A stretch of DNA of 64,000 nucleotides from Trypanosoma brucei (GCA_000002445.1 CP000069.1:608001-672000), one strand, 5' to 3'; counted from the first letter of the stretch, positions 5,269 to 61,689 are shown. Numbers and translations are program-made. Notes: a model not told the origin generated them from the letters alone.

Positions 5269-5295
5269 CAGAAAAACAAAGGGAAGAACAAATTG

Positions 5296-6490: not shown

Positions 6491-6509
6491 TATAATGCAA
6501 AGAGAGGGG

Positions 6510-6610: not shown

Positions 6611-6789
6611 TACACTCAAATATATATATATACACACACACAAACCATCAGAATGTTATGGATGTAAAGTTGCATCTAACCTCAATGGGTATCCTGTGGA
6701 GCGGCATCGATAAGTACAGTCGCCAAGGGACCTTTAATAATGAGGTGTAAATGTATTCACTCCACTCTCCCACAGGCAAGTCCGTCACA

Positions 6790-6882
6790 TGGACAATCAG
6801 CGTGTCCCGCAACGGTGCAACCCGCGGTACACAGTAAACAATAACAAACGTCGACGCGTACACCTCAGCGTTTCCTCTCATC
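6790..6882 (-). ncRNA. Candidate box C/D snoRNA immediately downstream of the previous one
   Basis: Minus-strand C-like box UUGAUGA (plus 6868-6874) and D box CUGA (plus 6797-6800) about 68 nt apart; a possible D' at plus 6855-6858. Confidence 0.2.
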
Positions 6883-6884
6883 AA

Positions 6885-6990
6885 CAACATGATCAGGTGT
6901 ATAATTAAATAACAACATCATTGGCGCCGCAATTCAGTTTCAATAAGTGTCGATAAAGTTGCAACCGCAAATTCATCACGATCACGCACA
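6885..6990 (-). ncRNA. Candidate box C/D snoRNA with full C-D'-C'-D architecture (one per repeat unit, recurring every about 1072 bp)
   Basis: Read on the minus strand: C box GUGAUGA (plus 6973-6979 'tcatcac'), D' CUGA (plus 6934-6937), C' AUGAUGU (plus 6915-6921), D CUGA (plus 6893-6896). Spacings of 35, 12 and 18 nt are compatible with 10-21-nt guide regions upstream of D' and D. I could not verify a terminal stem. Confidence 0.3.
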
Positions 6991-24501: not shown

Positions 24502-25192
24502 TTCCTATATTCACCAGTTAGGGTCCCGCCACTTTCCTCTCTCTGTTTCCCTCTTTTTCTTTCTATATGCACGTACGGAAGGGTTTTCTGTGCACTTCCT
24601 CTTTCTATAGATGTATGTATGTATATATCTGTATATTCGCACCAACCAACAAAGTGCTTGATGTTGATATTCCTTTTTATCTATGTTTGTTCGCAAGATT
24701 AGCCTGATGCACCTGCTAAACCTTCTTTCCCCCTTTTTTCTTCCCTTGTGAATATGTGGAGGAGAAAGCCTCAGAGTAAGGAAGAAACTGGGAAAATGTT
24801 CCCCCGTGTATTGCGCTATCAACTTCCTACTTTTTATACTTCTCGTTATTTTTCGTTTCTCGATTCTGGTGTCAGAGACGAAGAAGTTGATCTCTCTGGT
24901 GCTGCGTACTTCTTTACTCTTTCTACCCACGAAACGGTAACAGGATTAGGTACTGCAAAAATAGGAAAATAGGACGGGAGGAAAGCAAGCAAGGAAAAAA
25001 AAATAAGATTTACGTGGAACGTTTTTCTTCATCGTAGGGAATTATTGGCAGGGTGTACAAACAAAAAAAGAAAAAGAAAAACCAACTGAGATACATCTTC
25101 CACAAGTCTTCTCCTTCCTCTCTGTATCAAAACAAAGCAGCCAACATCGTTCAATCACCGGCCTCGAAGTGACCATATGCATTCTGTCCATT

Positions 25193-25194
<2 letters not shown>

Positions 25195-25238
<44 letters not shown>
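25195..25238. repeat. (CA)22 microsatellite
   Basis: Perfect 'ca' dinucleotide run in the 2.7-kb spacer between the coiled-coil gene and the 390-aa gene. Confidence 0.95.
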
Positions 25239-25243
<5 letters not shown>

Positions 25244-33530: not shown

Positions 33531-36119
33531 CTAGCGCCTACGGGAGGCAGCGGCGGCCTCGCGGAGAATATCAGTTAGAGCGCTGTTTATGCGCGAAAGA
33601 CTCGCCTCACGGATTTTCTGTTCGCGTTTGCCAAGCGCTTTCATTGGAGGAGATTGTCGCAATCGATCACGCGCGCTTTCAGTAGCTGCTTGAAGGTCCT
33701 TCGCCCATGCCGCCACCGGTAACGTAGATGTTGGTGCGACCTGCAGAAGCGCTGTAAGAATAGATGCTTCAGGGAATAAGAAGCTTTTGATATTTTCCAC
33801 TTCAAGTACTGCCCTCAAGGCATGAGCGAACGAATCTGTGTGCGCAATGCGTGCTCCACTACCGTACGTTTTCACAAACTCTAAGGTAAGAGGTGCGATA
33901 GAGCTCATTACAGGAAGAGTCTGCAGTGTCTCCGTGTGTTGCTGACACAGAAGCATCGGTAAGGGTACGTCCTGGGGTGCAGCATCAGATTTTCCACCTT
34001 TGCCCTTCCTTCGCTTCGGAAGATTTGAGACTTGCACGCGATGAGCCTCCAACATCGAGACATCGTGCAATAACATAAGGCTCCCTACAAGCTGGCGTGC
34101 GTGTTCGACACGTTCATTTACCGTAGGCATCCCTACCAGTGTGTTGGCGAGTGCTTCCACCTTTTGGCTGTGGATGTTACCCAGCACCATGGACCGTACG
34201 ACCACCCAGTCAGTGTTATCCACAAGGTCCTTCGCTTGCGGGTCCTGAAGGGCTTCAAAGACTTGGGACAACACCCTCTCTTCCGCTTGCATCAGATCAA
34301 ACACGTTACGCTGCGTTTGGCACTGGCGCAGTTCCCCAGCAATACGGCTCAAACTGTATATAACCCTCGCTAACGAGTTTGTTTGCCGCCGCTCGTATTC
34401 CTGGATGTCTTTCATAGCTGGCCATGACATGTACGTAAACACCTTAATGCGAAGGAGGCTACAATCCCTTTGAAGCATGCCATAATGTTCCCAGGCAGCA
34501 GTGTTCCATTCGCACACCCCATCCAGCGCACCACCAGCAACAAGGGGCCAGTAACCCACATGCGACATTGTATCACGTTGAATACTCTTGAAGTCCAGTT
34601 GGCAACACGCCGCTACATCAGCGAGTCCCAGGATGCGGGCGAAACACACGCTGAAAGTGAGCCAAGTGGGGTTGTTTTCTCGGCGATCTACACTATCCAG
34701 CAGCGCTAACCCCTTCTGTACCCACTCAACGTTCTTAGTAGCTTCGTAAACATGAAGGGATATATTGAGGGCGACAGTGATGTAACCATCACAGAGCCCT
34801 TCCTCACTCCAAGACAGGTTTTCGGAAAGAGGACGTGCTTCTTCATACGAACGTATACACGCCTGCAGTAGTTCTTCAACCTCGGCATGACTTGGCTGCG
34901 TCTCAGCGGTGATCCCCCAGAGGGCAACGTGACACCGCAGGCCCAAAATCCTCCGCATATGGTAATGCAGCCGCTCCTTTCCCTCAGGGCCCCCGTCCTC
35001 CTGCGACCATGCATATATCGCTGACGCCGCCGTTGCATCCACGTAGGTTGAAATGTCTAAAAAGCAGCAGCTCGCCTTGTAAAAACGCTTGGCGTAGGCC
35101 ACCGTCTCATTTCGAAGCTGAACGTCATCGCCCAGGCGAGAAAGAATCTCAAGCACCGCCATGGACGGGCCACGGCCCAAGCGACTTCCCGATGAACCCT
35201 TCAGTGACTCAGCCGACAGCGACCGAGCGAAACGGAGGGCATCCTCGAGGGTACGGTCGCTGTTAGATAAATTAATCGAAACACATTTCGACTCCTCAGG
35301 ACCATCGAGTTCCAGAACACCTTCAGTGGCATTCGACTCGGACAATGAGTTAAGATACAGCTCCACAAACGTCCAATTTTCCGGTTGGTGGGTCCACAAT
35401 TGTTTTGCTATGGCGTTAGCCTTCGCCAATTCCCCGTTAAGCTGCAGCACTTTTGCCAGCATTTCCAGACGGGCTGGTGGTAAACCCACCGATGCCCCTC
35501 TCGTGCTACAAAGAAATTTGACAGCATCTGCATACAACTTCTGCTGTTGTAGCACCTGGACGTACGTGCGTGAGGTAGATGTTGTCATCGTACCCTTCTC
35601 TGTAAGTACTGCAGCTTCGAGAAGATTTGCCGACACTTTAAGTAAAGCATGATCCACAGAATCCCGTGGCACCTGCGCAAGCATCGACTGCACCACCCAC
35701 ACATGATAGCGAGGATTAGGCCACCCGCTATTGAGTTGAAGGGCTGTCTTTTGTGCCATGTTATACGCACCCATTCGCACATACGTTTGGAACAGGTTCT
35801 CCAGCACAACCTTCTCGTCTTGAATACCCTTAAGACGCTCATAAGTTCGCACGAGGGCTTCCCAACTGCAGCACTGCTGAAGGACGTGAACAAGAGCATT
35901 AACAGCCGATCCGTCCGTTACATTTTGCAAGCTTAGCGCCTCCGCCTTCGATCGGGCCTTATCTATTACCTTCTTGCGTAGCAACAACAAGGCCTCTGCC
36001 GCTAAAACGGCGTGGTCGTTGGGAAACTTTGAAAGTGCATCCTCCAGCAAGCCCTCCGCCTGTCCTAACTTGCCCGTGTCAATAAGGTCAAAGATACGAT
36101 CTGAAACTCTGCCAGCCAT
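33531..36119 (-). CDS. Large TPR/helical-repeat protein (862 aa); possibly the N-terminal acetyltransferase B auxiliary subunit (NAA25/MDM20-like)
   Basis: An 862-aa all-helical ORF. The N-terminus 'RIFDLIDTGKLGQAEGLLEDALSKFPNDHAVLAAEALLLLRKK' parallels the NAA25 N-terminus (I-x-D-x-I-D-x-G...A-x-x-L-L-K-K-x-P). Scattered TPR-like A/L/Y periodicity. The family assignment is tentative. Confidence 0.4.
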   Translation of the reverse strand: MAGRVSDRIFDLIDTGKLGQAEGLLEDALSKFPNDHAVLAAEALLLLRKKVIDKARSKAEALSLQNVTDGSAVNALVHVLQQCCSWEALVRTYERLKGIQDEKVVLENLFQTYVRMGAYNMAQKTALQLNSGWPNPRYHVWVVQSMLAQVPRDSVDHALLKVSANLLEAAVLTEKGTMTTSTSRTYVQVLQQQKLYADAVKFLCSTRGASVGLPPARLEMLAKVLQLNGELAKANAIAKQLWTHQPENWTFVELYLNSLSESNATEGVLELDGPEESKCVSINLSNSDRTLEDALRFARSLSAESLKGSSGSRLGRGPSMAVLEILSRLGDDVQLRNETVAYAKRFYKASCCFLDISTYVDATAASAIYAWSQEDGGPEGKERLHYHMRRILGLRCHVALWGITAETQPSHAEVEELLQACIRSYEEARPLSENLSWSEEGLCDGYITVALNISLHVYEATKNVEWVQKGLALLDSVDRRENNPTWLTFSVCFARILGLADVAACCQLDFKSIQRDTMSHVGYWPLVAGGALDGVCEWNTAAWEHYGMLQRDCSLLRIKVFTYMSWPAMKDIQEYERRQTNSLARVIYSLSRIAGELRQCQTQRNVFDLMQAEERVLSQVFEALQDPQAKDLVDNTDWVVVRSMVLGNIHSQKVEALANTLVGMPTVNERVEHARQLVGSLMLLHDVSMLEAHRVQVSNLPKRRKGKGGKSDAAPQDVPLPMLLCQQHTETLQTLPVMSSIAPLTLEFVKTYGSGARIAHTDSFAHALRAVLEVENIKSFLFPEASILTALLQVAPTSTLPVAAWAKDLQAATESARDRLRQSPPMKALGKREQKIREASLSRINSALTDILREAAAASRRR

Positions 36120-38062: not shown

Positions 38063-38155
38063 ACTACGTCAGATTCTCAATTTCCACGGAGAGAAGCATC
38101 TCTGCATTCAAATGAAAAAAGGTCAAAGTTGCACCAACGGGTACTCCACACATCA

Positions 38156-38755
38156 TTACGAACGGCCGCGCTTCTCCACCCGTCGCGGTGGTATCCAAGT
38201 ATAATGCACTAACTGATCCTCCGCCACTGCAGCACCAACGCCAAGCTCCTCACGCCTCAACACACCAAGTCCGCCGCGTGCACTGTCTAAGTTCTGCCGC
38301 ACACCATCAACAACCTGCCCGCCGTGTGCACCTCGACCCCAGCGTCGTGTGTGGTCACAACCAACGTCCCATGAAACGGTTATGACGCGGTCGTCTAGCA
38401 GCGTGCCGTGTAAATCAATCACAGCGCTCATGGCGCCATCCTGGGACTCAAATACCACGAAACAAAACCCACAGGGCGTCCGTGTAACTTCACTCAGTCC
38501 CATCACAAGATCTCGTATATGACCACACCGGGAGAAATGCTCCCAGATTTGGTCCTCCGTCGTGTAGAAAGACAAGTTTCCAACGTACACTGTCGTGCTC
38601 TTATTCAGCTGTTCCTGCCGCCGCTCGATGAATTCCTTTTCCGTCAGAAGCGAACGCAGAAGTTCGTGACGGTCAACATATGCCATACGCGGCGTCAGAT
38701 CAATGAGGTATTCTGCCATGTTGTAATCGTTTGGCTCCGCTCCGTGTGCTCGCAC
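38156..38755 (-). CDS. CBP20: Nuclear cap-binding protein 20-kDa subunit (CBP20/NCBP2), an RRM
   Basis: '[78 protein letters not shown]...[14 protein letters not shown]' aligns residue-for-residue with human NCBP2 '[51 protein letters not shown]...LDDRIIRTDWDAG...RQYGRGRSGGQVRD'. Confidence 0.9.
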   Translation of the reverse strand: [199 protein letters not shown]

Positions 38756-39566
38756 ACGCGTGTCGAGAGTTTTAGCCGTACTTTACTATTCTCTCTTACG
38801 GCCACGCCGTGCGAGCTGATCGAAAAGAGGAACCAAGAAAATACTGAAGCTTTGGCAGTGCGCATCAAACGCATGGGGGAGAGTGTAAAGGCATGGAACA
38901 TGAAGGAAGAAAAAAGGGTAGAGCGTCATCTGTATATATATATATATATATAAATATGTGGTTATGGCAGTTGTGATACTGATGGAGAATCACCAGGAAG
39001 TTGAAACAGGAGGATTAAGCACAACACTATCACGCACACAGCGGCAGAGGATCTTAACACAACGAAAAAAAAAAATCATGCAACATATTTCAGTCAACAA
39101 AAAAAGAGAGAGAACATCGCACCAAACAGATACAAGCATTTCTGAAGCAACGGCAAAAAACATGACAGCAAATAGTAAGGGAAGGACATACAAGTAACAA
39201 TAGCAAATGTGTGGTTTCTCTATTTGCAGAAAGACGAAACACACACACACGCTAAAAAAAAAAAAACATGGCCAATGTGTTCTCACCTTTTCCCCTTTGT
39301 TTACCGTTCAACGGAAAAATAGAGAACACATAACTTCCTTTTTCTCACACAACCAGTCTTCCACCGTCCGCATATATGTATGCACACCTGATTCCATATA
39401 ATGTTGGTACGTAAAGTGTTTTACTGAAGCGGTGCACCAGAGAATATTAGAAGCAACAGCAACAAACAAGAAAAGAAAAGTAAAGTAAAAGAGAGACAGA
39501 ATTAATGCGATTATCTATGAGCCGCTTCACGCACCAACGACAAAAACAAAAACAAAAACAAAAACA

Positions 39567-47861: not shown

Positions 47862-50099
47862 TCACTTTTCGCCAGTACGAATGAGATTAATCAGCGACTG
47901 CATGTTACTTGCCTTTACGCATTCACGGCACTCGGCTACAAGTTGTGTTCTCGCCCTGCCGATACGTAGCTTACCCGCCTTCGCGATAAACCCATTGAGA
48001 CGCTTCAAAGCGCTTTTCAATTCTTTAAAATTGTTGGACAGCTTCAAGTTTTCATCAATAAGTTCCTTGTCAAGTTCATACAGTTGGGAGTAGTGGCGAC
48101 GCATGCTTACAATGTCCGATATCAGCCTCGAATCTTCAGCCCTCACAAGCAACGGTTTTATGTTTGTTGCAGCTTCCGCTATGTCATCACTCAGTTTCTG
48201 CCGCACCTTATCAAGATCTATAACACGTTCAACCGTCTCCTGCAGTTGCTGGAAGTCCTCCGGAAAATCACAACGGGACGTTGCCTCAGTAACACATGTC
48301 GTAGCAAAACTTTCGACAAGGATGCTGCATATATCCATGGAGTTACCACATATCTGCAACTCACATCTACTGAGAATTCCCCGAATCACCAATCCGGAGC
48401 GGTCCTGCAGATCCACAAAAGGAACAGAAAAATCGCTCGCAGTATCCGGAACACGATCCAACGGTACGTCAAACGTTTTTTGAAGCCACAGCGACACGCT
48501 ACCGAAGTCAAAATCCTTTGATAGCTGCAAAGTAACGCTTCCTGTGGGTTCTGAGAAGGATCCCCTACACCACTCATTTGGCCACAACCTGCACATGACA
48601 AACTTCGGGACTACAACATCGACTTCATGTACTTGGTAATTAACTGCGTTGGTAGAACCAACCATAACGGATGCCTTAAGTGTCACTTCCGGGCCCCGTG
48701 GAACATCAAGTCCGCAAACGAGTGTAGGCAGTGGATCCTGTGACATAAAGAGAATGTGCCCCTTTTCCGGAAACATAGCCTCACTACTGAGGATACAAGC
48801 GTAAATTATGGTATCTTGTTGACCGTTGATTACACTGAAAACCACATCAAGCTTCCCGGTTTGCGAGTTTGGCTGTAATTTGCAATCCACACCGGTTCCA
48901 ACCTTCGGTAAAGTCACATCCGTCCTACCACTCTTCTGCCTCACTAGCTGCTCCTTCACATTTGCTAACTCCTTCTCGAGCGCTTGCTTCTCCCTCATCA
49001 ACATATCAAGCTTAAGCGCCCCTTCCCGCTGCGCAACCATCGCTTCGTGCCTTCCCATCGTACCAGTCAGTTGTAAGCCACACACCGTTCCATCAACCGT
49101 ACATATGATCGGCAACGGTTGCCCGTTCTGGCGGTAGTCGTCTACCAGAACAGAACTTATTGGTGCGTCAAATGTTTCCTTACAAAGAACAGTCCCCTCG
49201 TTTCCGTCTCCGCTGCGCACCTCTACCCTTCCATTGTTCCAACCGATGATGAGCTCCGGCACGCCATCCATATCCACATCACAAAAAGCAGCAGATACCG
49301 GTCGCTGATTATCCTTCAATCGGTATAAACGCTCACATCTGTCGTATATGCCAACGGTACCACTATTTGAAAGATACGCAAACCGGCCCGGTACACCACT
49401 GTACACCAAACTGTGCACACGGTCTGCAAGACCAACACTTGTGATCGGCTCCTCACCGTCAAACACGCGTAGTTCAAAATCCTCTGATGCCGCAACTAAC
49501 GCCGGTGAGCCATTCAGCGTTGATGTTGAAGCGCACACGCCCGCGTCTGGCCAGGGCATAAGCATTAACGCGGTCACTCTGTCACCCGTTATGGTGGAAA
49601 ACACCTCCTCTCCACTTGAGTTGAAGCCGCTGATTGCGCAGTCCCCACCCACAATTGCCAGTGGAGCGGGTCCGCTCTTTGCTGTTGGGCCCACAACACC
49701 ACCCACTACCGCACTCACGCCATCTTCCACCTGTTTATAATAATATTCGCAGTTGCGCTCTACGTCATATGCTAACAAAGAGTTCGCTTCACCAAGAAAC
49801 AGTGCATCAACGCCTTCATTCTCATATCTCCCACCTATTGGTCCAGTTGCCAATGCAGTTAGTGCCTTACCAAAGTTAAAAGTCCGAAGCGGAGCTACCG
49901 AAGCATCCTCACGGTGAGCCGCTAGGGGGTTGCTTGTGTCATGCGTATGAACAATAACCTGACGGGTATTCGTCGCACACACAAGTGATGGTGTTTTCCC
50001 GTCGAAGCGCCCAATCGCAGCCAAACCTTCATTGAGTGATGCGTTGAGGCTTAACTGAAAGGCAGTCCGCATGGAGTAGCAGTTTGTCTGAAGACTCAT
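47862..50099 (-). CDS. BBS2: BBSome subunit BBS2
   Basis: The N-terminal beta-propeller aligns with human BBS2: 'AAIGRFDGKTPSLVCATNTRQVIVH' matches '[25 protein letters not shown]'; 'NSLLAYDVERNCEYYYKQVEDGVSAVV' matches '[27 protein letters not shown]'; 'PLAIVGGDCAISGFNSSGEEVFSTITGDRVTAL' matches '[33 protein letters not shown]'. Followed by a coiled coil and C-terminal platform. Confidence 0.85.
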   Translation of the reverse strand: MSLQTNCYSMRTAFQLSLNASLNEGLAAIGRFDGKTPSLVCATNTRQVIVHTHDTSNPLAAHREDASVAPLRTFNFGKALTALATGPIGGRYENEGVDALFLGEANSLLAYDVERNCEYYYKQVEDGVSAVVGGVVGPTAKSGPAPLAIVGGDCAISGFNSSGEEVFSTITGDRVTALMLMPWPDAGVCASTSTLNGSPALVAASEDFELRVFDGEEPITSVGLADRVHSLVYSGVPGRFAYLSNSGTVGIYDRCERLYRLKDNQRPVSAAFCDVDMDGVPELIIGWNNGRVEVRSGDGNEGTVLCKETFDAPISSVLVDDYRQNGQPLPIICTVDGTVCGLQLTGTMGRHEAMVAQREGALKLDMLMREKQALEKELANVKEQLVRQKSGRTDVTLPKVGTGVDCKLQPNSQTGKLDVVFSVINGQQDTIIYACILSSEAMFPEKGHILFMSQDPLPTLVCGLDVPRGPEVTLKASVMVGSTNAVNYQVHEVDVVVPKFVMCRLWPNEWCRGSFSEPTGSVTLQLSKDFDFGSVSLWLQKTFDVPLDRVPDTASDFSVPFVDLQDRSGLVIRGILSRCELQICGNSMDICSILVESFATTCVTEATSRCDFPEDFQQLQETVERVIDLDKVRQKLSDDIAEAATNIKPLLVRAEDSRLISDIVSMRRHYSQLYELDKELIDENLKLSNNFKELKSALKRLNGFIAKAGKLRIGRARTQLVAECRECVKASNMQSLINLIRTGEK

Positions 50100-53000
50100 G
50101 ATGATGAGCCGCGGTTATGGCTACCAATCAACTAATCAATGGAATGAATGAAGAAAAAATTAATATATGTTCACGCTACCAGTATTTAAGTACCTGTGTT
50201 AAGTGGTTGTATACCTATTTCACAATAATGCAACCTCACCTCAAATGTTTGAAAGAACCGGTGACTAAAGGGGGAAAAAAAGAAACTAACCTAAGCGCGC
50301 CACCTTTCTTCTTTAACTTCTCTTTTTCTTCACCTCCCTCACTGAAGTGGAAGTGGCTCTGTTTTGTAACAAAAATAATACGCAAAACACAACACACTAA
50401 TAAGAAGATGACACACACATCACCGCGAATAAATAAATAGAGGTTTTTTTTTTCGGAAGGAGGAAAAAAGAAAAATAAAAAAAACAAGGAAAAGAGGAGC
50501 TAGAGGAATGAGGTCATAAGCAGAAAAGGAATAAGAGAAACCAAAGTCAGTGCATATCAATGGTTACCCACTGAAAGCACGACCGCAAAAAAAAAAAAAA
50601 AAGATGCACTCACGGAGATTTTGTAAGAAAATAAAAATAAATAATATAAAACACCCCTCAAACTTACACACATTTATATACTGGCACAAACAAACACGCA
50701 CTTCTCATCTACAACCTCGCCTCTCCAAATTCTTCTTTCTTTACCTTTTTTCTCCTGTCGTCTTAGTCCACCTAACAATAATTGTTATTATAATTATAAT
50801 TTTATTAATTTTTTAAATCACTTCATCCAATGACGACAATACCAATACCAATACCAATATCAATACCAATACCAATAACAACCACAACTACAACTACAAC
50901 AGCCAAAACAATAATAATCAAAAAACAAAACAAAACAGAAACTCATTTCCTTATCTTTACTCATATTATCACTTCGTCATACACACACACAAAAAAAAAA
51001 AACGCTCTCGTTACTCTTACACCCACAAATAAATACTAATGAATATAAACCTTAAATATATTTAAATGAAACCACAAACATTATACCTACCTCTTAACTT
51101 GCTTCCCTAGACAAGTTAAGAAAGAAAAAGAAAAGAAAAAAAACAAAAGAAAAGAAAAGAATCAAATGAAAACATTAAGAAAAATGATTCCGCGCATGAC
51201 AACAATAATAATAATAATAACACTATCGCTATTTCTCATCTCGTTATTTTCTTCCCCTTCCAATTCCTCTTTTCTTTCTTCATTATTTTTTTCTTATGCT
51301 TTCGCTTTCCTTTTTTTTTCTCTCTTTCTTTTTCTTTCTCTTTACCTTTTGCTCTGCTCGCCCATGCTGGGCATCCTCTAACAACAATTTTTATTATTAT
51401 TATTTTATTTATATGAAATCAACCGAATAATAAAGTAATACAGCCGGTTATAAGCGGTAAGGTGGTAACGACGAAACCACATACTTGTTGTTGTAATAAT
51501 AATAATAATTATTATTTTTTTCTCTTCATTCGTTACTCATTTAAGGAAGTAAGGAAAAGTGCAATGGTAATAATAATAACAATTATTACTATTATTATTA
51601 TTATTACCATCATTACGAATGGGATCTCTTCCCTTGAAACCCCGCAGTGGAACTGTTTTTTTTCTTTTTTTTAAAAAAAAGGTGTATGAAAACAAACATT
51701 TGATAAGTATTAAAAATTAATCAAATGAAGTTAAACAAATGAACTGAGTGATCGATTCGTGAGGAAACAAAAAGAAAAAAAAGAAAGAAAAGATAAAGAG
51801 ATAAAAAGAAAAAAGGAGGCTAAACAAACAAACAAACAAAGACGGAAGCGAAAGCGGACACGTCCCTTCCACACATTTTCCTCATTTCTTTCTTTTTTTT
51901 TGTTGTTGTTGTTCTTTACATATATATTTATATATTTATATATATATTCGTTACTGTTGTTGAGATTTCACCGTGTCACCAACTCCTTTTTTTTTCCATA
52001 TCACAACCGTCGTAAATCGTAACAGCGGTAATCATCACGACGCAAAGGCACTGAAAGATAAAACAACAAGAAAAAAAAGGAAAAATACAAATAAAATACA
52101 AATACAACGTTTCTCCCTATCGTGTCACTCATTCATTCATTTATTCATTTACTTAATTACTTATTTTTTGTTGCTGTTGTCGCGTTTCTACACTTCACTT
52201 CTGATGCTTAAAAAAAAAAAAAAGAGATAAAACAAAATAAGTAAAAAAAACAAAAAAAGAAAAAAGAAATTAAGCACTCCATTGGGTCCACCCGCCTCTT
52301 GTTTCATCCATTTCTTGTGTTGTTGCATTGAGGTGTTTTTTTTGTTTATTATTTTATTTTATTTTCTCCCTTCTTCGGTATTTTTTTTTTCAAAATTTAT
52401 ATTCGCTTCGTTACAAAAAACCGGCAGCGGCAATAACGGCGAGAAGTGAAAAAACAAAAACAAAAACACAAAAGAAAGTCCAACACGCCTCCTTTTCAAA
52501 AGAAAAAGAAAGAGAAAGAAAAGGATCCACCACACTACAACAAATCCAATTCAATTTCCTACAAAAATAAAAAATTTAAAAAAACAATTTCATTTTCTTC
52601 GGTGTTATTATTATTATTATTGCCACTGCTATTGCTTTTTTTTCCTTTCTTTTTGTCTTTTCCCTATATTTATCCCCTTTACACACAAACAAAAACAAAA
52701 ACAAAACAATTCACACGAACTCTCGCTTATATTTCTCCTCCTCTTTTTTTCTCTCTCGTTCCCTTTCCTTTACAAAATAAAAAATTTAGAAAAAAAACAA
52801 AAAAATTGCGCACTTTTTTTCCGTCAGACAAAATTGTTTATTTGCTTTTAGTCACTTATTTCCATGAGTGGGTGCGCATCTACAATAAAATCAAAAAAAA
52901 AGGAGAAGTTTTATATAAAACGGCTCCCGTAAAATACAAAAGAGGGAGAGAGAAAGATATTTAAAATAAATAAAAAAAAAGAAGAAACGAGAGGACCGCC

Positions 53001-56000
53001 ATAATAATAATAATAACAGGAATAAAAATAATAGGGAGTAATAATGGGGAAAAGAATATCATATCAAAGGAGAAGGAGGAATAAGGGAAAAAAAAAGGAA
53101 AAACGGGGGGGGGAAAAAAAAGGGAAACTAAACAAAAAAAAACGACAACAACAAAACAACAGCGGCATTGAGTACACTGCACGAGAGGAATTTTTTTAAA
53201 AAAAATTAAAACTTGTAAGTAATGACAGGGGAAACTAAAAAACGGGGATCATCACTTAAGTGACTAAAAGGAAGAAAGAGATAGAAAAACAAAAAAAAAG
53301 GGGAAAATGAAGGGAAGGGAAATCACATAATAAAGGAATATTTAAGAGGGTTAGGGAAGGAAGGAAGGGGGAAAAAAAAAAACAGAAACGGAAACGGAAT
53401 ACTTTGAGGCTAACAAAAAAAAAAGAGACAACGGAATAAAATAAATAAAAACGCCACAGAGAGGACGAACGAAAAAAAAATTGTTTTTTTTTTTTGATTC
53501 CACAGAAGGAGAGTTAGTAAAAAAAAAGAAGGAAAAGTAAGGGAGGGCGCGCACCGAAGTCGAACACACAAAAACACACAAATAAGCACGAAAATAAAAG
53601 AAAATTAGAAAAAGAAAAAGAAAGAAAAAAGAAACATAACGGAATTGAGAAAGTGTTGCCGAAAAGAGTAAAGTGAAACAACCAACACGACAAAAAGAGG
53701 CATAAGAAATATCGAACAACCGATATTAAAATAATCTCACAGATATGAAAGCGACGGTTGTTGTTGTTGCTGTTGTTTCTCTTTTTTTTCTTTTGCGCGT
53801 GTGTTGGTGTACTGATTCATTCATTCATTCGCTCACATCCGTCCAGAGGAATATAAAAACAAAAAACCAAAGAACAAAAGGGAATACGGCAGTTTTAAAT
53901 ATACGAATATTTACAAATATATGCAAAAAAGAAAAAAATGAGTATTAACTCGTAAATATAACTGCTGTGTTAGGTATAATAAACATAATTTAAACATATA
54001 AATATATAAATGCGTGTGCATTTGCATTTGTACACACGGATACGCCCAAACGCGACTTCTCAAAAAAAAAAAAAACAGCAGTGATAGAAAACAAAAACAA
54101 AAATAAGCGCTCCCGTGCGATGTACCACATTTCCGCAATTGGCGTCGGGGAGAAACCAAATCAAAGACAAAAGTAAGGAGGAGAAAAAATCAAAGGGGAA
54201 CATAAAGGAAGAATGAAGACGTGGGACATTTTATCTATTTTGCAATATAATAACATTAATAATAAACAAAACATGGGCGGGACTCACACGAAACACAGAC
54301 TAATATAGAAGTAGAAGCTATAAACACATAATTATATTTATTTACATTAATAATATCAAAAGGAAATACGCGTTAGAGTATGAAGAAACGGAAACTGAGA
54401 AGTAGTGAAAGGAGGAATGCCAAGGTTCACGCCATTTTTTAATGATCCAGCATTCAGAAGAGAAACAAACAACAAAAAGACAAAAAGGCATTCATTACCT
54501 CTTATTTGCCCTCACTTCCCTTTTTTTTTCTTTTTGGTAGTTTACTCTTGTCCCCCTCCATTTCTTTTTCTTTTTTAGTTCTCCGTTTGTTCGTTTACTC
54601 TTGTTTTTGTTTTTTGGTTTGTGTCTTTTGCCTCGCCACATGTGTCACATCAGTCCCCATCTGATTTCATTAAATCTTTCACTCTTCTGTAGCTTCATTT
54701 GGCCCCTTTATTCTCCTTTTTTTCTATTGCTTATTTATTTGGCGCATCTACGCACACATATACACATACGCAAGCATAAATTAAAGTAAAAAACATCAAC
54801 CGCTTCCTCCCCCCCTTTATTAAAAATGAAAATCATTATTTAACCATTATACATATGTGCACATATATATATATATATATATATAACGTAAATAAACACA
54901 AATACATCAACCAATAGATATATATATTTATATTCCCTCCTTCCTTCAATCAATCCAGTACTTCTTCCGTGATATTATTTCCCCTTTTCATTTACCTCTC
55001 CTTCTTCATCCCCACATAGTCCCCAAAGTAAAATTGAAAGAAAATGAAACAACGACAAAACAACTGAAAGGATGAAGACAACCCAACGTATGCAAGAAAC
55101 AAGGAAAAAGAGAGAGAGAAGGAAAAACAAAGTGAGAGGGGTTTAAATTTTAAAAAAAAATCCAATCACCCAGGTCCAAAAGTGAAGAGTGGACAAGAGA
55201 GGAGTCAAAAAAAAAAAAGGAAAAAGAAGAGAGTGAAGAACAGCAACAAACCATGCCAACAGTCAACTACAGTAGTAATAATAGTAATAATATAAAGGAA
55301 AACTGGAAAAAACATCAGAAAGTCAAGAGCACACTATGTGCATATATAGTGCTGACGCATAGATGCATCTTCACAAGGAGGGAACACCGTAACAACAACA
55401 ACAAAACAAAACAAAATTCTGAAGCAAAGCAAATCCAAGCAAACAAGTAAAAGGGGACAGGAATATTTTGCCTCGGTCACTTAACTCCGTGGCCACTCCC
55501 ACCACATCGAGCGAAACAGTATGCGGGGGAGAAAAGAAATGGACAACTATTGACGTATATAAACATAGATATATAGATAAATATCTGTTGTTGCTCTTGT
55601 TGTCATTGATGATGTTAAGGTGTGCGCCTCATATACAAATATGCATATTTAAATATATATATATATTTATATATATATACATGAAAAGGTATTAGACGAG
55701 GGATAATAACAAAATCAGGAATATTCCCTCCAAAGTACAAACGACTCGGTGCGGCCCAGTTGGTGGGGACGAAAGAGGAACAAAGAGCCCCGCTGAGCAC
55801 ACACACGCACACACACACAACAAAAAGGAGGAGAGAGGGTAAAGTGACAGAGGCAATCAAAGGAAATGAAAGGAAAATAGGAAGGTAGGGAAAATTAGTT
55901 TCGGAATACAACTTGGTTATATAGTATATAAAACCAATAAATACAAACCAGCAGACAGTGGTGCTGCTTCTTTTACTTCATTCCTTTCCCTCACTACTTA

Positions 56001-56200
56001 TTGTTATTTCATTTTTCTTCTTTATTCTCTTTTACCTTAATCCCTTTAGATTCTTTGATACTATTTTGTACCCGCCCATTCCCCCCTTTTTTTTAATTGG
56101 CTAATTGGGAACATAGAGGAAAAGGTATTCGTCTGGCGCCATGCACTTTAACTCGTCTTCTGGGGTAAATTTTGCACTGGCTTGTTTGTTTTCTTCGTTG
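50100..56200. repeat. 6.1-kb ORF-free, AT-rich low-complexity block made of alternating 50-750-bp polypurine and polypyrimidine segments with many mini- and microsatellites
   Basis: No ORF longer than 172 aa, and those present are low-complexity artefacts (K-, F- and L-runs). Examples: (accaat)n and (acaact)n at 50830-50890, (caaa)n at 51820, (ttca)n at 53815, (aat)n runs, and about 750 bp of nearly pure A/G on the plus strand at 52960-53700. Flanked by BBS2 (ends 50099) and the STE11-like kinase (stop 56216), both on the minus strand. Confidence 0.8.
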
Positions 56201-56215
56201 ATTCCTGAGTTCCGC

Positions 56216-58135
56216 TCAGCGGCTGACAATGGGCAACTTCGTCGTCCTCGCGCAAGCATCACCGGCTATTCCCACTCCCTTCCTTCGACCCTTGCGCGGG
56301 TCACTAGTACGACTATCGAGAGGTGCCGTGCTGCTGCTGCATGAGATGGACAGACGTCGCCGAACGTTGCTCTGGCGGAAGCTGTTCATGCGGGGACGCC
56401 GGCCAGATTCGATGCCAAGAAGACTCCCACATCCCCTCATGCCAATCACGGCATGTCCTGAAGGAATGTGAGTGCTAAGCAGTGAAACGCGGCTCCGTTC
56501 AGCCCCATTAATGGGGCTTGTCGTCGCAGCTGCAACCTTGTTCGTAACACTTGCCACATCGATTTGCGAACACGCGCTTGCAAGTGAGCAATCCATCAGG
56601 CTACAACTTCGTACGGAGTCCGCCTTTCCCTTGCCCTTTATCCATGGGTGTCGCAGCAACTGTCGCGCCGTTAGACGCTCCCTCGGGTTGGTACGGGTAC
56701 ATTGACGAATGAACTCTTTGGCACCCTCGGGAAGGTGCTCTGGGATGTGCCTCTCGAGTTCACCTCGTAGAATAGCAAACATAACTGCCATACAGTTGTC
56801 TAGCTGCCAGAAGGGGGGATGACCGGTTAGCATCTCAAGTACGCAACAGCCCACGGACCAGATATCAGCCGTGTAGCTGTGCCCACTGCAGTTAATCACT
56901 TCAGGCGCCATAAAATTCGGCGTTCCAGCGACACTATTCGTTACTATAGTTGACTGCAAATCTTTGCTAGTACCGAAATCACCAACTTTCAAGACGCCAT
57001 TCCCTGTTATAAACAAATTGTCCCCCTTCAGATCGCGGTGCACGATGCGCCGCTTGTGAAGGTATGCTAAACCCTCTAGCAACTGTCGAGTATAGTTACG
57101 AGTCTCCTCCTCGCTCAGAGCCCCTTCGGTTTTAAGCTTGCTAGCGATGGTGCCACCACTAATGTACTCCATGTATATCAACAGCGCGCAGCACCCCTCG
57201 TCGCGTCGTGAAGAAAAGTACTTCACAATATGCTTGTGATTCAACTTGCGCATCACACGAATTTCCCGTTCCAGCGCGCATAGTTGCTTCTCTGTGTCCC
57301 TGTCAATATCTGAAGATACAATAATCTGCTTCACCGCAAGCTCCGCCCCTGTGTCCAGGTCAGTTGCACGAAATACATCGCCGAACATCCCACGACCGAT
57401 ACGTTCCTCTATCCGCACATTGACGATCTTTCTACGTAGGGCAGTTTCTGTGGTGGTGGAGACACCCGGAGTTCGGAGAGCCGGAGAGGCACTTCGGTCT
57501 AACAGATTGATCGAGTTTCCGGTGACGTCTACAGCGGAAGTGCCAGTGACACCATTGAGTTGATTCGTGCTCGCCACACTGGCCCTCCCATCTCCAATGC
57601 ACGTTGTGCTACACGTGGCCACACTTTCCATCTCAAGTACTTTTGTAAACTCAAGCGTGGAGGATAGTAACGATGCACTGCACGACGGGTCACCGCTTGT
57701 CGAATTCGACCTGCTACAGCTTGCTTTGTCACCCTCCGGCGTGTTTTCCAATATTTGCGTTGGGACGTCCTTTGTCAATTCGCCTAACCACGAATCAAGT
57801 GCTTCTTGACTGGCTTCTAGCACTCCACTCGCCATTTCGCTCGCCACATCATCTACTTCCTCACTGAATGCCGTTACACTAGTGACTGCAGATAGTGTGT
57901 TACTCGGTGTTCGGTCGAGTTGTACGAGTTGGTTTGGTCTCTGAAGTGCCTTTACAGTCCGTACGATGGGGCGGGGGGTAACCGCACCGGTATGCAAACG
58001 ACTTGTATAAACACCAGTACCCGCTAGACGAGCGTTCACCGATATCAAATCACGACGCCGCAGGGCCTCCGCGGCTAGTGGCCGATGGCCGTCCTCCGGT
58101 GGAGCACACGGGTGGCAATTTTCCAAGAGGGACAT
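56216..58135 (-). CDS. Serine/threonine protein kinase, STE11/MEKK-like (MAP3K family)
   Basis: Kinase domain in the C-terminal half: Gly-loop 'GRGMFGDVFRA', 'AVKQI' (VAIK-equivalent), 'HRDLKGDNLF', 'DFGTSK', 'GTPNFMAPEV' (STE-group activation segment), 'HPWIKG'. Long Ser/Thr-rich N-terminal regulatory region. Confidence 0.85.
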   Translation of the reverse strand: MSLLENCHPCAPPEDGHRPLAAEALRRRDLISVNARLAGTGVYTSRLHTGAVTPRPIVRTVKALQRPNQLVQLDRTPSNTLSAVTSVTAFSEEVDDVASEMASGVLEASQEALDSWLGELTKDVPTQILENTPEGDKASCSRSNSTSGDPSCSASLLSSTLEFTKVLEMESVATCSTTCIGDGRASVASTNQLNGVTGTSAVDVTGNSINLLDRSASPALRTPGVSTTTETALRRKIVNVRIEERIGRGMFGDVFRATDLDTGAELAVKQIIVSSDIDRDTEKQLCALEREIRVMRKLNHKHIVKYFSSRRDEGCCALLIYMEYISGGTIASKLKTEGALSEEETRNYTRQLLEGLAYLHKRRIVHRDLKGDNLFITGNGVLKVGDFGTSKDLQSTIVTNSVAGTPNFMAPEVINCSGHSYTADIWSVGCCVLEMLTGHPPFWQLDNCMAVMFAILRGELERHIPEHLPEGAKEFIRQCTRTNPRERLTARQLLRHPWIKGKGKADSVRSCSLMDCSLASACSQIDVASVTNKVAAATTSPINGAERSRVSLLSTHIPSGHAVIGMRGCGSLLGIESGRRPRMNSFRQSNVRRRLSISCSSSTAPLDSRTSDPRKGRRKGVGIAGDACARTTKLPIVSR

Positions 58136-59560
58136 GGTGTCCGTGGGAGCGTGCGTATATGTGGCACGCGAGGAGGAACGCTACAATTTACCCTCTACTA
58201 ATTTCTTTTCCTTTTTTTCTTGAAACCTTTCTTTGTATGTTGGTGGCGAACCGAGACACACCAATGATCTCTTTCTTGACTTCTCTTCCTCCTGTGCGGA
58301 TACCACCCACAAACGGTCCGGCTTTTGCGACTATTGAAGGGACAAAAAAGGAAAAAAAATGATGCTATGAATGTGGGTACGTTCGAAAAGAAGGATAGAA
58401 AAACAATCTTTACTGTTACAAAATGAATACGTATACATATACGTATTCATTTATATATGTATACGGATATATATTCGTATATAAATGTGCTGCGTGAAGC
58501 AAATACAGGCGGAATTGTGCCTTGTTCATTGATGCGGGGGAACATAAACGGCACAGATGAGAAGAGCAGAATTACAGAACATATGCAACAACGAAAAGAA
58601 CGTGCATGTGGTGAAATTTCCAAATGTTTAAACAGAACTTGACAAATTCTAAAGTACCAGTCACAACTCTTTAACAATCACAAGCATTTGCTACAATAAT
58701 AACAGTTATAGAGCAAGCATGCAATAAATTTTGTAATCCCGCAGAACCCACCCGCCGTCACCGCACAAGTGCGGACTGTGCGCTCGCACAAACCCCATAC
58801 TCCACAATCCCACCATTCAAGACGAAAATTTTAAAAAGTACTGAATGCAAAAATCTGAAGAATAACAAAAAGAAAAGGAAAACAAAGCAAAGAAAAGAAA
58901 AGTGAGAAAAAAAAACATTAAGTAACAACCACAGTTTCGCTCACACTCTAACCCTCCCATGACACCCCAATTCCATCATATTCTCATAATATGTATGTTA
59001 GCATCAGCCCCCGTGGAGGCTTGCAGGCACACACGCATATGCCTACATGCCATCGACGTAGCACCACCACGGGGGGAGGAAGACGCATTCCTTCCTTCTA
59101 TACACAATGAGACCATGGAGCAAAAAGAAAAAAAACTGACGGTGACAAAACATCGCGAAGGGGGGTGGAAATATATATAACATCACATCATATTGCTACG
59201 AGTAACAATGGTAATAGATGACAGAAAACTAGGGAAACTTTCTCTGTTTTGATTGAAAAGTTAACGGTATGCAACAAAACGAGTGGTCATTCACCCATTG
59301 CTTTCGATAAGAATACTAAAGACGAAAAATATATATATATATATGAATGGTACACGTTTGATGCACCGCCCCCTGCCAGCAAAATATTACTAAGTATTTT
59401 GATGTTTCCGGGCACTAGGAAAAATGGCACGGACGTAAAGCACATAAAATGGAAAAGTGAAGCTCAAGAATCAAAGAAAACGAGGACAGAAAAAGAAGCG
59501 CCGGGACACTCCGCAGCACCGATGAGAACTCTCACGCCACTGCGAAGATGAGAGTGGGCA

Positions 59561-60745: not shown

Positions 60746-61689
60746 TGGCTAAGTCTAACACCCTTTTTTTTTCCAATATATAAGTATACAAGTTTATATG
60801 TATCGTTTCCAGTTCCACCCTTTGCCTTCTATTTTTTTTTTGCTTCCCTTCGGCGTATCCCCCTACCGTTTGACTTTCCCCTCTGTTCTGGTGAGATAGG
60901 AGTTTAGTCTTCTGAGTTCGGTGGCGCCTCAGCACCTACACCCGGGGTAAACACGGCAGTTACGCCACGCTCGGTTGGAAAAAAGAAAAAATAAGGGTGG
61001 GGAAAACAAACGAATAACCAAGCTGATAAAGCTGACCATGCGGAGCGATGAGGAGAGTTAAAAAACAAAAAAATGGACTTTAACAACAGGAAAAGAACAA
61101 ATCATATGGAAAGGAAGGAATAGAAGGGGGAAATTCCACTTTAGCTCTGCTGTGAAGTATCATATTTGGCTCTCTTCAGTGGAGCGAAGGAAAATAAAAG
61201 GGGGAAAAGAGGGAGGGTGGGGAATCAGCTGAAGAACGCAACGTTTAAATAGCTTTTCTCTTTTCACGAACATATCAGAGATACTGGAGAGTTATTTTTT
61301 CTACATCATGAAACGGGTAACCCAAATGAAAGGAGGTTCAAAAAAAACAAGCAGGAGAAGGCCCTTCTCCCCTGTCGGTTGTCGTCGCCTTTCCTCGGGC
61401 TTTCGTTAAGCCATGAAACCGTTGGTGGGGCCTGCAAAGCCGCACGATAGATGCTACGATAACGAAAACATCTGCTGCTACCACCACTCTTATGACAGTC
61501 ACTACTGCAGTGAGAAAAGAAGAGCGAAAAGAAAACTGCGGGAGCAAGTGTGGGGCTCAGAGAACTCAACAACGAAGTCAACTCAAAGAAACCAAATTTC
61601 CACCAAGTGCTACTTAAATAAGAATTACGACTTACGTTTATTATACTTGATGAGAAGGGGAGGTAAATAACACGTATATAAACCAGCTG

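What the first reader, a model, noticed from the sequence alone, without database searches (positions are those of the whole stretch)
50100..56200. 6.1-kb ORF-free block of alternating polypurine and polypyrimidine segments inside the transcription unit
Between BBS2 and the STE11-like kinase there is no credible ORF for 6.1 kb; the only ORFs are homopolymer- or microsatellite-driven. The sequence is organised as alternating segments of about 50-750 bp that are almost pure purine or almost pure pyrimidine on a given strand, for example plus 52960-53700 (A/G-rich) and plus 54520-54760 (C/T-rich), with many embedded mini-satellites. The spacer is far longer than the 0.3-1.5-kb intergenic regions elsewhere in the window. 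Possibilities are an unusually long 3'UTR of the kinase (U-rich on the transcribed strand), a long non-coding RNA, a recombination-prone or fragile low-complexity region, or an assembly-difficult region whose true length differs. Long homopurine/homopyrimidine mirror tracts can form triplex (H-DNA), and the pyrimidine-rich tracts on the transcribed strand could seed internal trans-splice and polyadenylation sites, which would make this a cryptic processing hotspot.
Basis: seen in the sequence. Interest (0 to 1): 0.55.

Follow-up and report, generated by a model that had tools for sequence, protein, structure and literature searches.

The report
Very long low-complexity kinase 3'UTR
The 6.1-kb gene-free stretch is real and is most likely the unusually long, repeat-rich untranslated tail of a Trypanosoma brucei protein-kinase mRNA, an extreme but ordinary example of a known feature of trypanosome regulatory genes.

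Summary
The window is T. brucei TREU927 chromosome 6 (about 608,001-672,000). The gap 50100-56215 lies between the stop codon of the STE11/MAP3K-like kinase Tb927.6.2030 and the start codon of BBS2. Both genes are on the minus strand of one polycistronic unit.

The gap is truly ORF-free, with no Pfam, Rfam or tRNA match and no peptide conserved across species. It is AT-rich (GC 0.33) and 40% U on the transcribed strand. It splits into 22 alternating purine-rich and pyrimidine-rich blocks, against about 2 in shuffles. "Almost pure" is overstated: blocks are about 62-89% biased, and pure runs are 15-39 nt.

Its length is not an assembly artefact. Three other T. brucei-group assemblies are collinear, and the two that span it measure 6.03 and 6.16 kb.

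The kinase-to-BBS2 spacer is the longest, or once second-longest, spacer at this locus in all eight other trypanosomatid species examined, but its sequence is not conserved.

The best reading is a 5.6-5.8-kb kinase 3'UTR, ended by the BBS2 trans-splicing signal. Its 38 internal polypyrimidine tracts are normally ignored or masked. H-DNA, lost-gene and artefact readings are not supported. Direct transcript mapping was not available.

The parts
56216..58135 (-). CDS of the STE11/MAP3K-like protein kinase (639 aa), inferred to be Tb927.6.2030. The spacer begins at its stop codon.
   Evidence: Pkinase domain, E=1.5e-71. The best non-kinetoplastid homologues are MAP3K2/3 and plant ANP1/NPK1. The gene ID comes from the neighbours RRS1=Tb927.6.2050, HisRS=2060 and PSP=2000, and from Kolev Table S6 'Tb927.6.2030 protein kinase putative'.
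50100..56215 (-). The 6116-nt ORF-free, AT-rich, low-complexity spacer (chr6 about 658,100-664,215). On the transcribed strand it is U 39.7%, A 27.5%, G 17.7%, C 15.1%.
50387..56215 (-). Predicted 3'UTR of the kinase mRNA, about 5.6-5.8 kb. The 3' end is predicted, not mapped: the poly(A) site is expected 123-178 nt upstream of the BBS2 splice acceptor, that is about 50387-50574.
   Evidence: PPT/AG positions. The spacing rule (median 142 nt, interquartile range 123-178) comes from Kolev 2010.
50455..50540 (-). Composite 85-nt polypyrimidine region (on the transcribed strand), the strongest candidate trans-splicing signal for BBS2. The first AGs downstream are at 50398/50397 and 50360-50357.
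50265..50285 (-). Second candidate BBS2 signal: PPT UUUCUUUUUUUCCCCCUUU followed directly by AG (50266/50265). It would give a 165-nt 5'UTR.
47862..50099 (-). BBS2 CDS (745 aa), the downstream gene, whose trans-splicing should set the kinase poly(A) site.
   Evidence: Six BBS2 Pfam domains.
52772..53757 (+). Largest purine-rich block on the plus strand (73% purine, 986 bp), which is a pyrimidine-rich, PPT-dense stretch of the transcript. It includes PPTs of 42, 57 and 62 nt.
54489..55024 (+). Pyrimidine-rich block on the plus strand (68% pyrimidine), which is purine-rich in the transcript. It carries a (TA)11 microsatellite at 54863-54885.
50286..52771 (+). Zone of short-period alternation: 15 blocks of 58-452 bp, with a weak periodicity of about 648 nt. 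A-rich purine blocks recur at about 50465, 51120, 51770 and 52210.
51305..51343 (+). Longest pure pyrimidine run in the window (39 nt). It contains the only perfect mirror repeat with arms of at least 10 nt (51321-51341).
51265..51858 (.). Imperfect palindrome of about 600 nt: a pyrimidine block, an (AAT/ATT)n centre at 51564-51610, and a purine block. It is about 60% self-complementary and driven by low complexity.
   Evidence: (I1, I2)

Best explanation
The block is untranscribed-gene-free RNA-processing space inside a polycistronic unit. Nearly all of it (about 5.6-5.8 kb) is the 3' untranslated region of the STE11/MAP3K-like kinase mRNA (Tb927.6.2030). The last 165-300 nt are the BBS2 5'UTR and its trans-splicing signal.

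Proposed mechanism:
- RNA polymerase II reads through from right to left (shown: all genes are on the minus strand).
- The spliced leader is added at an AG downstream of the polypyrimidine tracts at 50455-50540 or 50267-50285 (inferred from sequence).
- As is the rule in trypanosomes, this event sets the poly(A) site of the upstream kinase mRNA about 120-180 nt further upstream (inferred from the published rule). The predicted mRNA is about 7.8-8 kb.
- The 38 other polypyrimidine tracts inside the UTR are normally not used, probably because RNA-binding proteins such as DRBD18 cover them (inferred from literature, not tested for this gene).
- The long U-rich, poly(U)/poly(AU)/polypurine-rich UTR serves as a large landing platform for RNA-binding proteins that set mRNA stability, export and translation of a signalling kinase (inferred).

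The purine/pyrimidine block pattern is a by-product of slippage-driven growth of A/G-rich and T/C-rich microsatellites and homopolymers in weakly constrained sequence. Supporting observations are 23% tandem-repeat content, a 2-6-fold excess of indels between strains, and an ordinary substitution rate.
For: Position and strand: the spacer starts at the kinase stop codon, and all 24 large ORFs are on the minus strand.

No gene inside:
- There is no credible ORF, no Pfam family above cut-off on the sense frames, no Rfam family and no tRNA.
- No peptide or nucleotide block is conserved with the T. vivax, T. cruzi, T. theileri or L. mexicana spacers.
- No gene is called in the spacer in any of the eight other species.

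Conserved length:
- The kinase-to-BBS2 spacer is the longest in the locus in T. brucei (6116), T. vivax (3926), T. cruzi (3560), T. theileri (3035), T. melophagium (1827), L. mexicana (7243-7771), L. braziliensis (7769) and Angomonas (1139). It is second-longest in Phytomonas (1521).

Real length: three other T. brucei-group assemblies are collinear at 96-98% identity, and the two that span the spacer measure 6034 and 6156 nt.

UTR-like composition:
- The transcribed strand is 40% U.
- It carries 24 runs of U8 or longer and 15 AUAUAUAUA positions, with strong excess of poly(U), poly(A) and poly(AU) over shuffles.

Evolution like other non-coding DNA:
- Substitutions are 10.2-10.4 per kb, against 6.4-11.3 per kb in neighbouring spacers and 1.6-4.2 per kb in CDS (same two assemblies).
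- Indel events are 7.2-9.1 per kb, against 1.4-3.2 per kb in neighbouring spacers.

Processing signals lie at the BBS2-proximal end.

Literature:
- Long 3'UTRs carry low-complexity poly(AU) and polypurine tracts (PMC10090614).
- Mapped 3'UTRs range up to about 6,000 nt (PMC2936537).
- Kolev et al. detect Tb927.6.2030 mRNA at 11.5 copies per cell. They list no independent novel transcript between chr6 593,447 and 669,075, and no alternative processing for Tb927.6.2020 or 2030.
Against: - No transcript-end data for this gene could be retrieved. The Kolev poly(A) and splice-site tables are truncated in the held copy, and other supplements are not held. The continuity of one RNA from the kinase CDS to about 50,500 is therefore inferred.
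- The Kolev list covers procyclic forms only and is filtered (NT.41-46 are missing from the final list).
- A later catalogue of 1428 mostly intergenic, AT-rich, trans-spliced lncRNAs exists (PMC9200285) and could not be checked for this interval.
- With 38 PPT+AG candidates, some internal processing is likely in at least some conditions.
- The mapping to chr6 coordinates rests on one exact ORF-length match and a round offset of 608,000.
Confidence: 0.72

Rival explanations
1. The spacer is cut into several RNAs. The kinase mRNA ends early at an internal site, and one or more independent trans-spliced, polyadenylated non-coding RNAs (lncRNAs, possibly stage-specific) come from the rest.
For: There are 38 polypyrimidine tracts on the transcribed strand (6.2 per kb, against 2.5 per kb in other non-coding DNA), most with an AG within 0-60 nt. 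3'UTR-derived trans-spliced RNAs are documented after DRBD18 loss. A catalogue of 1428 mostly intergenic AT-rich lncRNAs with normal processing motifs exists.
Against: Kolev et al. list no novel transcript in chr6 658,100-664,215, and no alternative processing for Tb927.6.2020 or 2030 in procyclic forms. Published work says internal PPTs in 3'UTRs are generally unused. No sequence in the spacer is conserved between species.
Confidence: 0.17
2. A large part of the spacer is an unusually long 5'UTR of BBS2, with trans-splicing far upstream of the ATG, rather than kinase 3'UTR.
For: 5'UTRs up to about 2,500 nt exist in T. brucei. Many PPT/AG candidates lie upstream.
Against: The median 5'UTR is 130 nt. 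Strong PPT+AG signals sit 165-300 nt upstream of the BBS2 ATG. Even a maximal 2.5-kb 5'UTR would leave about 3.5 kb to explain.
Confidence: 0.05
3. The block acts mainly at the DNA level. It would form H-DNA/triplex or R-loops, or be a fragile, recombination-prone site that modulates Pol II passage or genome stability.
For: Purine and pyrimidine runs are dense (7.2 per kb). Indel events between strains are 2-6 times more frequent than in neighbouring spacers.
Against: There is only one perfect mirror repeat with arms of at least 10 nt, and it is 21 nt long. The longest pure run is 39 nt. The region is collinear, with about 1% length variation across assemblies. The substitution rate is the same as in other spacers. 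Genes downstream are intact and in the same unit.
Confidence: 0.04
4. Assembly artefact, or a decayed gene or retroelement relic.
For: The region is low-complexity and hard to assemble in principle. T. b. gambiense annotation calls two small ORFs inside it.
Against: Three other assemblies are collinear. There is no Pfam hit and no cross-species peptide conservation. The Tbg 107-aa ORF is F/L-rich and broken in this window, and the 109-aa ORF is on the non-transcribed strand. Internal repeats are only low-complexity ones.
Confidence: 0.02

Closest known systems
Multi-kb 3'UTRs of T. brucei regulator mRNAs, for example RBP10 (about 7.3-8.5 kb) and ZC3H20/21/22 (over 4 kb), and protein kinases as a class (Clayton 2019; Bishola Tshitenge and Clayton 2022)
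   Same: It lies directly downstream of a regulatory-protein ORF in a polycistronic unit. It is several kb long and U-rich, and is full of poly(U), poly(AU) and polypurine low-complexity tracts and unused polypyrimidine tracts. Its primary sequence is poorly conserved.
   Different: For this gene the transcript ends are not mapped here. It has no UA(U)6 RBP10 motif at all (0 against 3.7 expected), so control is unlikely to be through RBP10. At a predicted 5.6-5.8 kb it sits at the top of the range mapped by Kolev et al. (about 6,000 nt).
DRBD18-masked internal polypyrimidine tracts and alternative poly(A)/trans-splice sites in long 3'UTRs
   Same: There are 38 candidate PPTs and 24 runs of U8 or longer on the transcribed strand. 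By comparison, 528 copies of (U)8 occur across 163 DRBD18-bound 3'UTRs.
   Different: Binding of DRBD18 to this mRNA, and altered processing on its depletion, were not checked (the supplements are not held). Predicted local RNA structure does not hide these PPTs any more than it hides functional ones.
Trypanosome intergenic lncRNAs (Kolev 'NT' transcripts; the Guegan et al. 1428 lncRNAs, e.g. grumpy)
   Same: AT-rich, non-coding sequence flanked by usable PPT/AG motifs.
   Different: No independent transcript is listed in this interval by Kolev et al. No embedded snoRNA or other Rfam family is present, unlike grumpy.
H-DNA-forming homopurine-homopyrimidine mirror repeats
   Same: Many short purine and pyrimidine runs.
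   Different: The runs are 15-39 nt and almost never mirror-symmetric (one 21-nt element). This is far from the long mirror tracts that define H-DNA motifs.

Membership tests
Long low-complexity 3'UTR of a trypanosome regulator mRNA | Lies immediately 3' of a protein-coding ORF, on the transcribed strand, inside a polycistronic unit | tested here: met
   The kinase stop is at 56216. All 24 ORFs of at least 200 aa are on the minus strand.
Long low-complexity 3'UTR of a trypanosome regulator mRNA | No coding or structured-RNA gene inside | tested here: met
   ORFs are only low-complexity. Pfam, Rfam and tRNA searches are negative. No cross-species peptide or nucleotide conservation.
Long low-complexity 3'UTR of a trypanosome regulator mRNA | U-rich, with poly(U), poly(AU) and polypurine low-complexity tracts | tested here: met
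   40% U. (U)8, (A)8 and AUAUAUAUA are strongly over shuffles. 23% tandem repeats.
Long low-complexity 3'UTR of a trypanosome regulator mRNA | Ends about 100-200 nt upstream of the downstream gene's PPT/AG trans-splice site | tested here: inconclusive
   Suitable PPT+AG signals lie 165-300 nt upstream of the BBS2 ATG, but the actual sites are not mapped.
Long low-complexity 3'UTR of a trypanosome regulator mRNA | One continuous mature RNA joins the CDS to the distal end (Northern blot, long reads, poly(A) mapping) | not testable with these tools
   Only indirect evidence: the mRNA is detected, and Kolev 2010 list no separate transcript in the interval.
Independent trans-spliced lncRNA locus | Own spliced-leader acceptor and poly(A) site, supported by reads | tested here: not met
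   No 'NT' transcript lies between chr6 593,447 and 669,075 in Kolev Table S7. That covers procyclic forms only.
H-DNA / triplex motif | Long homopurine-homopyrimidine tract with mirror symmetry | tested here: not met
   One perfect mirror repeat with arms of at least 10 nt, 21 nt long. The longest pure run is 39 nt.
Assembly artefact / collapsed or expanded repeat | Length or order not reproducible between independent assemblies | tested here: not met
   Collinear in GCA_003543875.1 (6034 nt), T. b. gambiense DAL972 (6156 nt) and, up to its contig end, T. equiperdum OVI, at 96-98% identity.
snoRNA / small-RNA host region | Matches to snoRNA or other RNA family models | tested here: not met
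   No hit at gathering score. The best sub-threshold hits have E of 0.2 or more. The true TB6Cs1 array elsewhere in the window scores 82-94 bits.
Pseudogene or retroelement relic | Residual protein-domain or cross-species peptide similarity | tested here: not met
   Pfam on the sense frames gives only sub-threshold hits from hydrophobic low complexity. tblastn against four species gives chance-level hits. The antisense frames were not scanned against Pfam.

The most novel reading that the evidence does not exclude
The spacer may not be a passive long UTR but a stage-switchable processing module. In particular life-cycle stages, for example when DRBD18-type masking changes during stumpy, metacyclic or procyclic transitions, internal PPT/AG sites would be used. 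This would yield a short, differently regulated kinase mRNA plus UTR-derived trans-spliced lncRNAs that themselves act in differentiation signalling. On this reading, the independent expansion of the same spacer to 6 kb in T. brucei and 7-8 kb in Leishmania reflects selection for regulatory capacity on this MAP3K.
Probability: 0.15. Interest if true: 0.45.

Novelty: new member of a known kind. Interest (0 to 1): 0.2.

Why it matters
If the prediction holds, Tb927.6.2030 carries one of the longest 3'UTRs in the T. brucei genome. The mapped range reaches about 6 kb, against a median of 388 nt.

The downstream spacer of this kinase has stayed the longest in its neighbourhood across trypanosomatids, although its sequence has turned over completely. 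This suggests that length or binding capacity, rather than specific motifs, is what is kept.

With 38 unused polypyrimidine tracts, it would be a convenient natural test case for how trypanosomes tell real trans-splice sites from decoys.

It does not reveal a new kind of element. For genome annotation, the practical message is that the small ORFs called inside this spacer in T. b. gambiense are probably spurious.

Tried and rejected
1. Hidden gene. ORF lists, Pfam on the sense frames, Rfam at E<=1, tRNA scan, and tblastn/blastn against four orthologous spacers all gave nothing. The L. mexicana and L. braziliensis spacers align at 64-75% nucleotide identity, but peptide similarity is lower and falls in several frames, so the conservation is non-coding.

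2. Cis-masking idea: that polypurine blocks base-pair with and hide the internal PPTs. The local unpaired probability of 34 internal PPTs is 0.61, against 0.56 for 26 gene-proximal PPTs (Mann-Whitney p=0.38). This was rejected for spans up to 200 nt.

3. H-DNA. A mirror-repeat scan found one 21-nt element.

4. Segmental or tandem duplication, or a transposon. Self-blast and repeat finding gave only low-complexity matches, apart from a weak 648-nt periodicity and three TTCGTTAC motifs. This is not enough to claim a repeat unit.

5. A conserved element just after the stop codon. A four-species alignment shows none.

6. RBP10 control. There are no UA(U)6 motifs.

7. Direct UTR data from supplements. 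Seven papers either hold no text supplement or do not list the gene. Only Kolev Table S6 (abundance) and Table S7 (novel transcripts) were usable.

Full report
**Where we are**

Rfam finds six tandem units of the trypanosomatid H/ACA snoRNA cluster TB6Cs1 at 5.3-11.5 kb. All 24 ORFs of at least 200 aa are on the minus strand, so the window is one polycistronic unit read from right to left.

The ORF 47862..50099 carries six BBS2 Pfam domains. The ORF 56216..58135 is a protein kinase. Its closest non-kinetoplastid relatives are MAP3K2/3 and plant ANP1/NPK1, which makes it STE11-like.

The neighbours fix the gene numbers. RRS1 is Tb927.6.2050, HisRS is Tb927.6.2060 and the PSP-domain protein is Tb927.6.2000. 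The kinase is therefore Tb927.6.2030, which Kolev et al. list as 'protein kinase putative'.

Tb927.6.1950 is given at Tb927_06_v4 641,531-644,119, which is 2589 bp. This matches exactly the window ORF 33531..36119, giving a round offset of 608,000. The spacer is therefore chr6 about 658,100-664,215. A 199-aa RRM ORF at 38156..38755 accounts for the remaining gene number.

**The observation**

The gap between the kinase stop and the BBS2 start is 6116 nt. It holds no credible ORF:
- The longest ORFs are 122 aa on the transcribed strand (TTG start) and 172 aa on the other strand (GTG start). All are F/L/K-rich translations of low-complexity DNA.
- No ATG-started ORF of at least 80 aa lies on the sense strand.
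- The three sense frames give no Pfam family above its cut-off.
- Rfam at E<=1 gives only chance-level hits, and there is no tRNA.

GC content is 0.33, against 0.35-0.47 in the other spacers. On the transcribed strand the composition is U 39.7%, A 27.5%, G 17.7% and C 15.1%.

The purine/pyrimidine alternation is real:
- A zigzag segmentation gives 22 alternating blocks of 58-986 bp, against a mean of 2.35 (maximum 7) in shuffles.
- 7.4% of 50-nt windows are at least 85% purine or pyrimidine, against about 0 in dinucleotide shuffles.
- Pure runs of at least 15 nt occur at 7.2 per kb, against 2.2 per kb in other non-coding DNA and 0.26 per kb in coding DNA.
- 23% of the gap is short tandem repeat, against 4.3% elsewhere in non-coding DNA.

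The wording 'almost pure' is too strong:
- The longest pure run is 39 nt.
- Only one perfect mirror repeat with arms of at least 10 nt exists.

Other protein-gene spacers in the window are 0.33-1.5 kb. The exceptions are one of 2.7 kb and the snoRNA array.

**Is the length real?**

The exact kinase protein is encoded in three other T. brucei-group assemblies. Their spacers are collinear with the window at 96-98% identity. They measure 6034 nt (GCA_003543875.1) and 6156 nt (T. b. gambiense DAL972). The T. equiperdum contig ends inside the spacer but is collinear as far as it goes.

- Substitutions run at 10.2-10.4 per kb, like the neighbouring spacers (6.4-11.3 per kb) and about four times the coding rate in the same two assemblies.
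- Indel events run at 7.2-9.1 per kb, against 1.4-3.2 per kb in neighbouring spacers.

So the region evolves as ordinary non-coding DNA with extra slippage. It is neither an assembly artefact nor a rearrangement hotspot.

**Comparative evidence**

Gene order (HisRS, RRS1, cytochrome-b5 reductase, kinase, BBS2, AMP-binding protein, PSP protein) is conserved in the eight other trypanosomatid species examined. In none of them is a gene called between the kinase and BBS2.

| Species | Kinase-to-BBS2 spacer (nt) | Other spacers in the locus (nt) |
|---|---|---|
| T. vivax | 3926 | 407-1754 |
| T. cruzi | 3560 | 179-2637 |
| T. theileri | 3035 | 286-1590 |
| T. melophagium | 1827 | 309-1554 |
| L. 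mexicana | 7243-7771 | 1084, 4754 |
| L. braziliensis | 7769 | 747-4253 |
| Angomonas deanei | 1139 | 196-990 |
| Phytomonas EM1 | 1521 | 211-1657 |

The spacer is thus the longest in its locus everywhere except Phytomonas, where it is second.

Sequence is not conserved. Sensitive blastn and tblastn between the T. brucei, T. vivax, T. cruzi, T. theileri and L. mexicana spacers give only low-complexity or chance matches. The region just after the stop codon does not align.

The two Leishmania spacers align at 64-75% over about half their length, but peptide similarity is lower and falls in several frames. The conservation is therefore non-coding.

The purine/pyrimidine block pattern is also seen in the orthologous spacers, at 2.8-4.6 blocks per kb.

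**Processing signals**

On the transcribed strand there are 38 polypyrimidine tracts of at least 14 nt. That is 6.2 per kb, against 2.5 per kb in other non-coding DNA and 0.2 per kb in CDS. Most are followed by an AG within 0-60 nt. There are 24 runs of U8 or longer.

The end nearest BBS2 carries two candidate signals:
- An 85-nt composite tract at 50455-50540, with AGs at 50398/50397 and 50360-50357.
- A second tract at 50267-50285, followed directly by AG at 50266/50265.

With the published spacing between a splice site and the upstream poly(A) site (median 142 nt, interquartile range 123-178), the kinase poly(A) site is predicted at about 50,387-50,574. This gives a 3'UTR of 5.6-5.8 kb and an mRNA of about 7.8-8 kb.

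**What the literature says**

- The median T. brucei 3'UTR is 388 nt, and the mapped range reaches about 6,000 nt (PMC2936537).
- Long 3'UTRs carry low-complexity sequence, with poly(AU) and polypurine tracts enriched among ZC3H28-bound mRNAs (PMC10090614).
[quoted passage not shown] DRBD18 depletion exposes them, giving truncated mRNAs and trans-spliced UTR fragments (PMC9380746).

For this gene specifically, Kolev et al. detect the mRNA at 11.5 copies per cell in procyclic forms. They list no novel independent transcript anywhere between chr6 593,447 and 669,075, and they do not list Tb927.6.2020 or 2030 among genes with alternative processing. The poly(A) and splice-site tables themselves are truncated in the held copy, so the 3'UTR end could not be read directly.

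**Interpretation**

The most economical reading is that nearly the whole block is the kinase 3'UTR, ended by BBS2 trans-splicing. The many internal polypyrimidine tracts would be ignored or masked. The block pattern would be a product of microsatellite and homopolymer slippage in weakly constrained, U-rich UTR sequence.

What appears to be kept in evolution is length, not sequence. This fits the published idea that long UTRs lower mRNA abundance or offer many low-specificity binding sites.

I put this reading at about 0.72.

The main rival, at about 0.17, is that the kinase mRNA ends early and the remainder yields separate non-coding RNAs. This cannot be excluded without read-level data. A catalogue of 1428 intergenic lncRNAs exists but could not be queried.

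**Ideas tested and dropped**

- Polypurine blocks do not make the internal tracts less accessible in local folding: unpaired probability 0.61 against 0.56 for functional tracts, p=0.38.
- H-DNA potential is minimal.
- There is no retroelement or segmental duplication. There is only a weak 648-nt periodicity, a 600-nt low-complexity palindrome and three TTCGTTAC motifs.
- There is no RBP10 motif: 0 against 3.7 expected.

**Verdict**

The feature is real and somewhat exaggerated in the description. It is best filed as an extreme member of a well-known class, the long low-complexity 3'UTRs of trypanosome regulatory genes. Interest is low to moderate. Its value is as a clean example for studying decoy splice signals, and as a warning about spurious ORF calls inside it.

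Noticed in passing
window 5269-11566 (-): Six tandem units of about 1073 nt of the H/ACA snoRNA cluster TB6Cs1 (H1, H3, H4), scoring 82-94 bits. This is the only other spacer of about 6 kb in the window.
   Followed up: partly
window 61075-61535 (-): With the 608,000 offset, the Kolev et al. novel transcript Tb6.NT.47 (460 nt, 1.4 copies per cell) falls between the cytochrome-b5 reductase gene and RRS1. Only short ORFs (37-91 aa, mostly non-ATG starts) lie there. The 5' end overlaps a polypyrimidine tract, so the offset may be off by some tens of nt here.
   Followed up: partly
L002 12818-13141 (+) and 17730-18059 (-): The T. b. gambiense DAL972 annotation-aa and 109-aa genes inside the spacer. 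The first is F/L-rich low complexity and is broken into 51/57-aa pieces in this window. The second lies on the non-transcribed strand next to the BBS2 start. Both look spurious.
   Followed up: yes
L004 15958-18297 (+): In T. vivax assembly GCA_021307395.1 no BBS2 gene is called, although an intact 779-aa ORF sits at the syntenic position. This is probably an annotation gap.
   Followed up: partly
window 58136-59560; L006 7364-10000; L008 5247-10000; L013 5748-10000: The spacer upstream of the kinase (cytochrome-b5 reductase to kinase) is the second-longest in most species: 1.4 kb in T. brucei, 2.6 kb in T. cruzi, and 4.3-4.8 kb in Leishmania. The kinase is flanked by long non-coding regions on both sides.
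   Followed up: no
window 50560-56215 (-): There is no UA(U)6 (RBP10-type) motif in 5.66 kb of 40%-U sequence, although 3.7 +/- 2.1 are expected from dinucleotide shuffles.
   Followed up: partly
window 50300-52800: A weak periodicity of about 648 nt in both purine/pyrimidine pattern and base identity (0.349 against a mean of 0.293, sd 0.013). There are also three TTCGTTAC motifs at 51529, 51947 and 52407. This may be a trace of an old, heavily decayed tandem duplication, or may be coincidence among A-rich blocks.
   Followed up: partly
window 38156-38755 (-): A 199-aa ORF with an RRM-like sequence (VYVGNLSF...GFCFVVF) lies in the 1.5-kb 'spacer' 38063-39566. It is a real small gene that a 200-aa ORF cut-off misses.
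   Followed up: partly
window 24502-27175: A second unusually long spacer (2.7 kb, GC 0.42) with nine pure purine or pyrimidine runs and only low-complexity ORFs. It is probably another long UTR.
   Followed up: no
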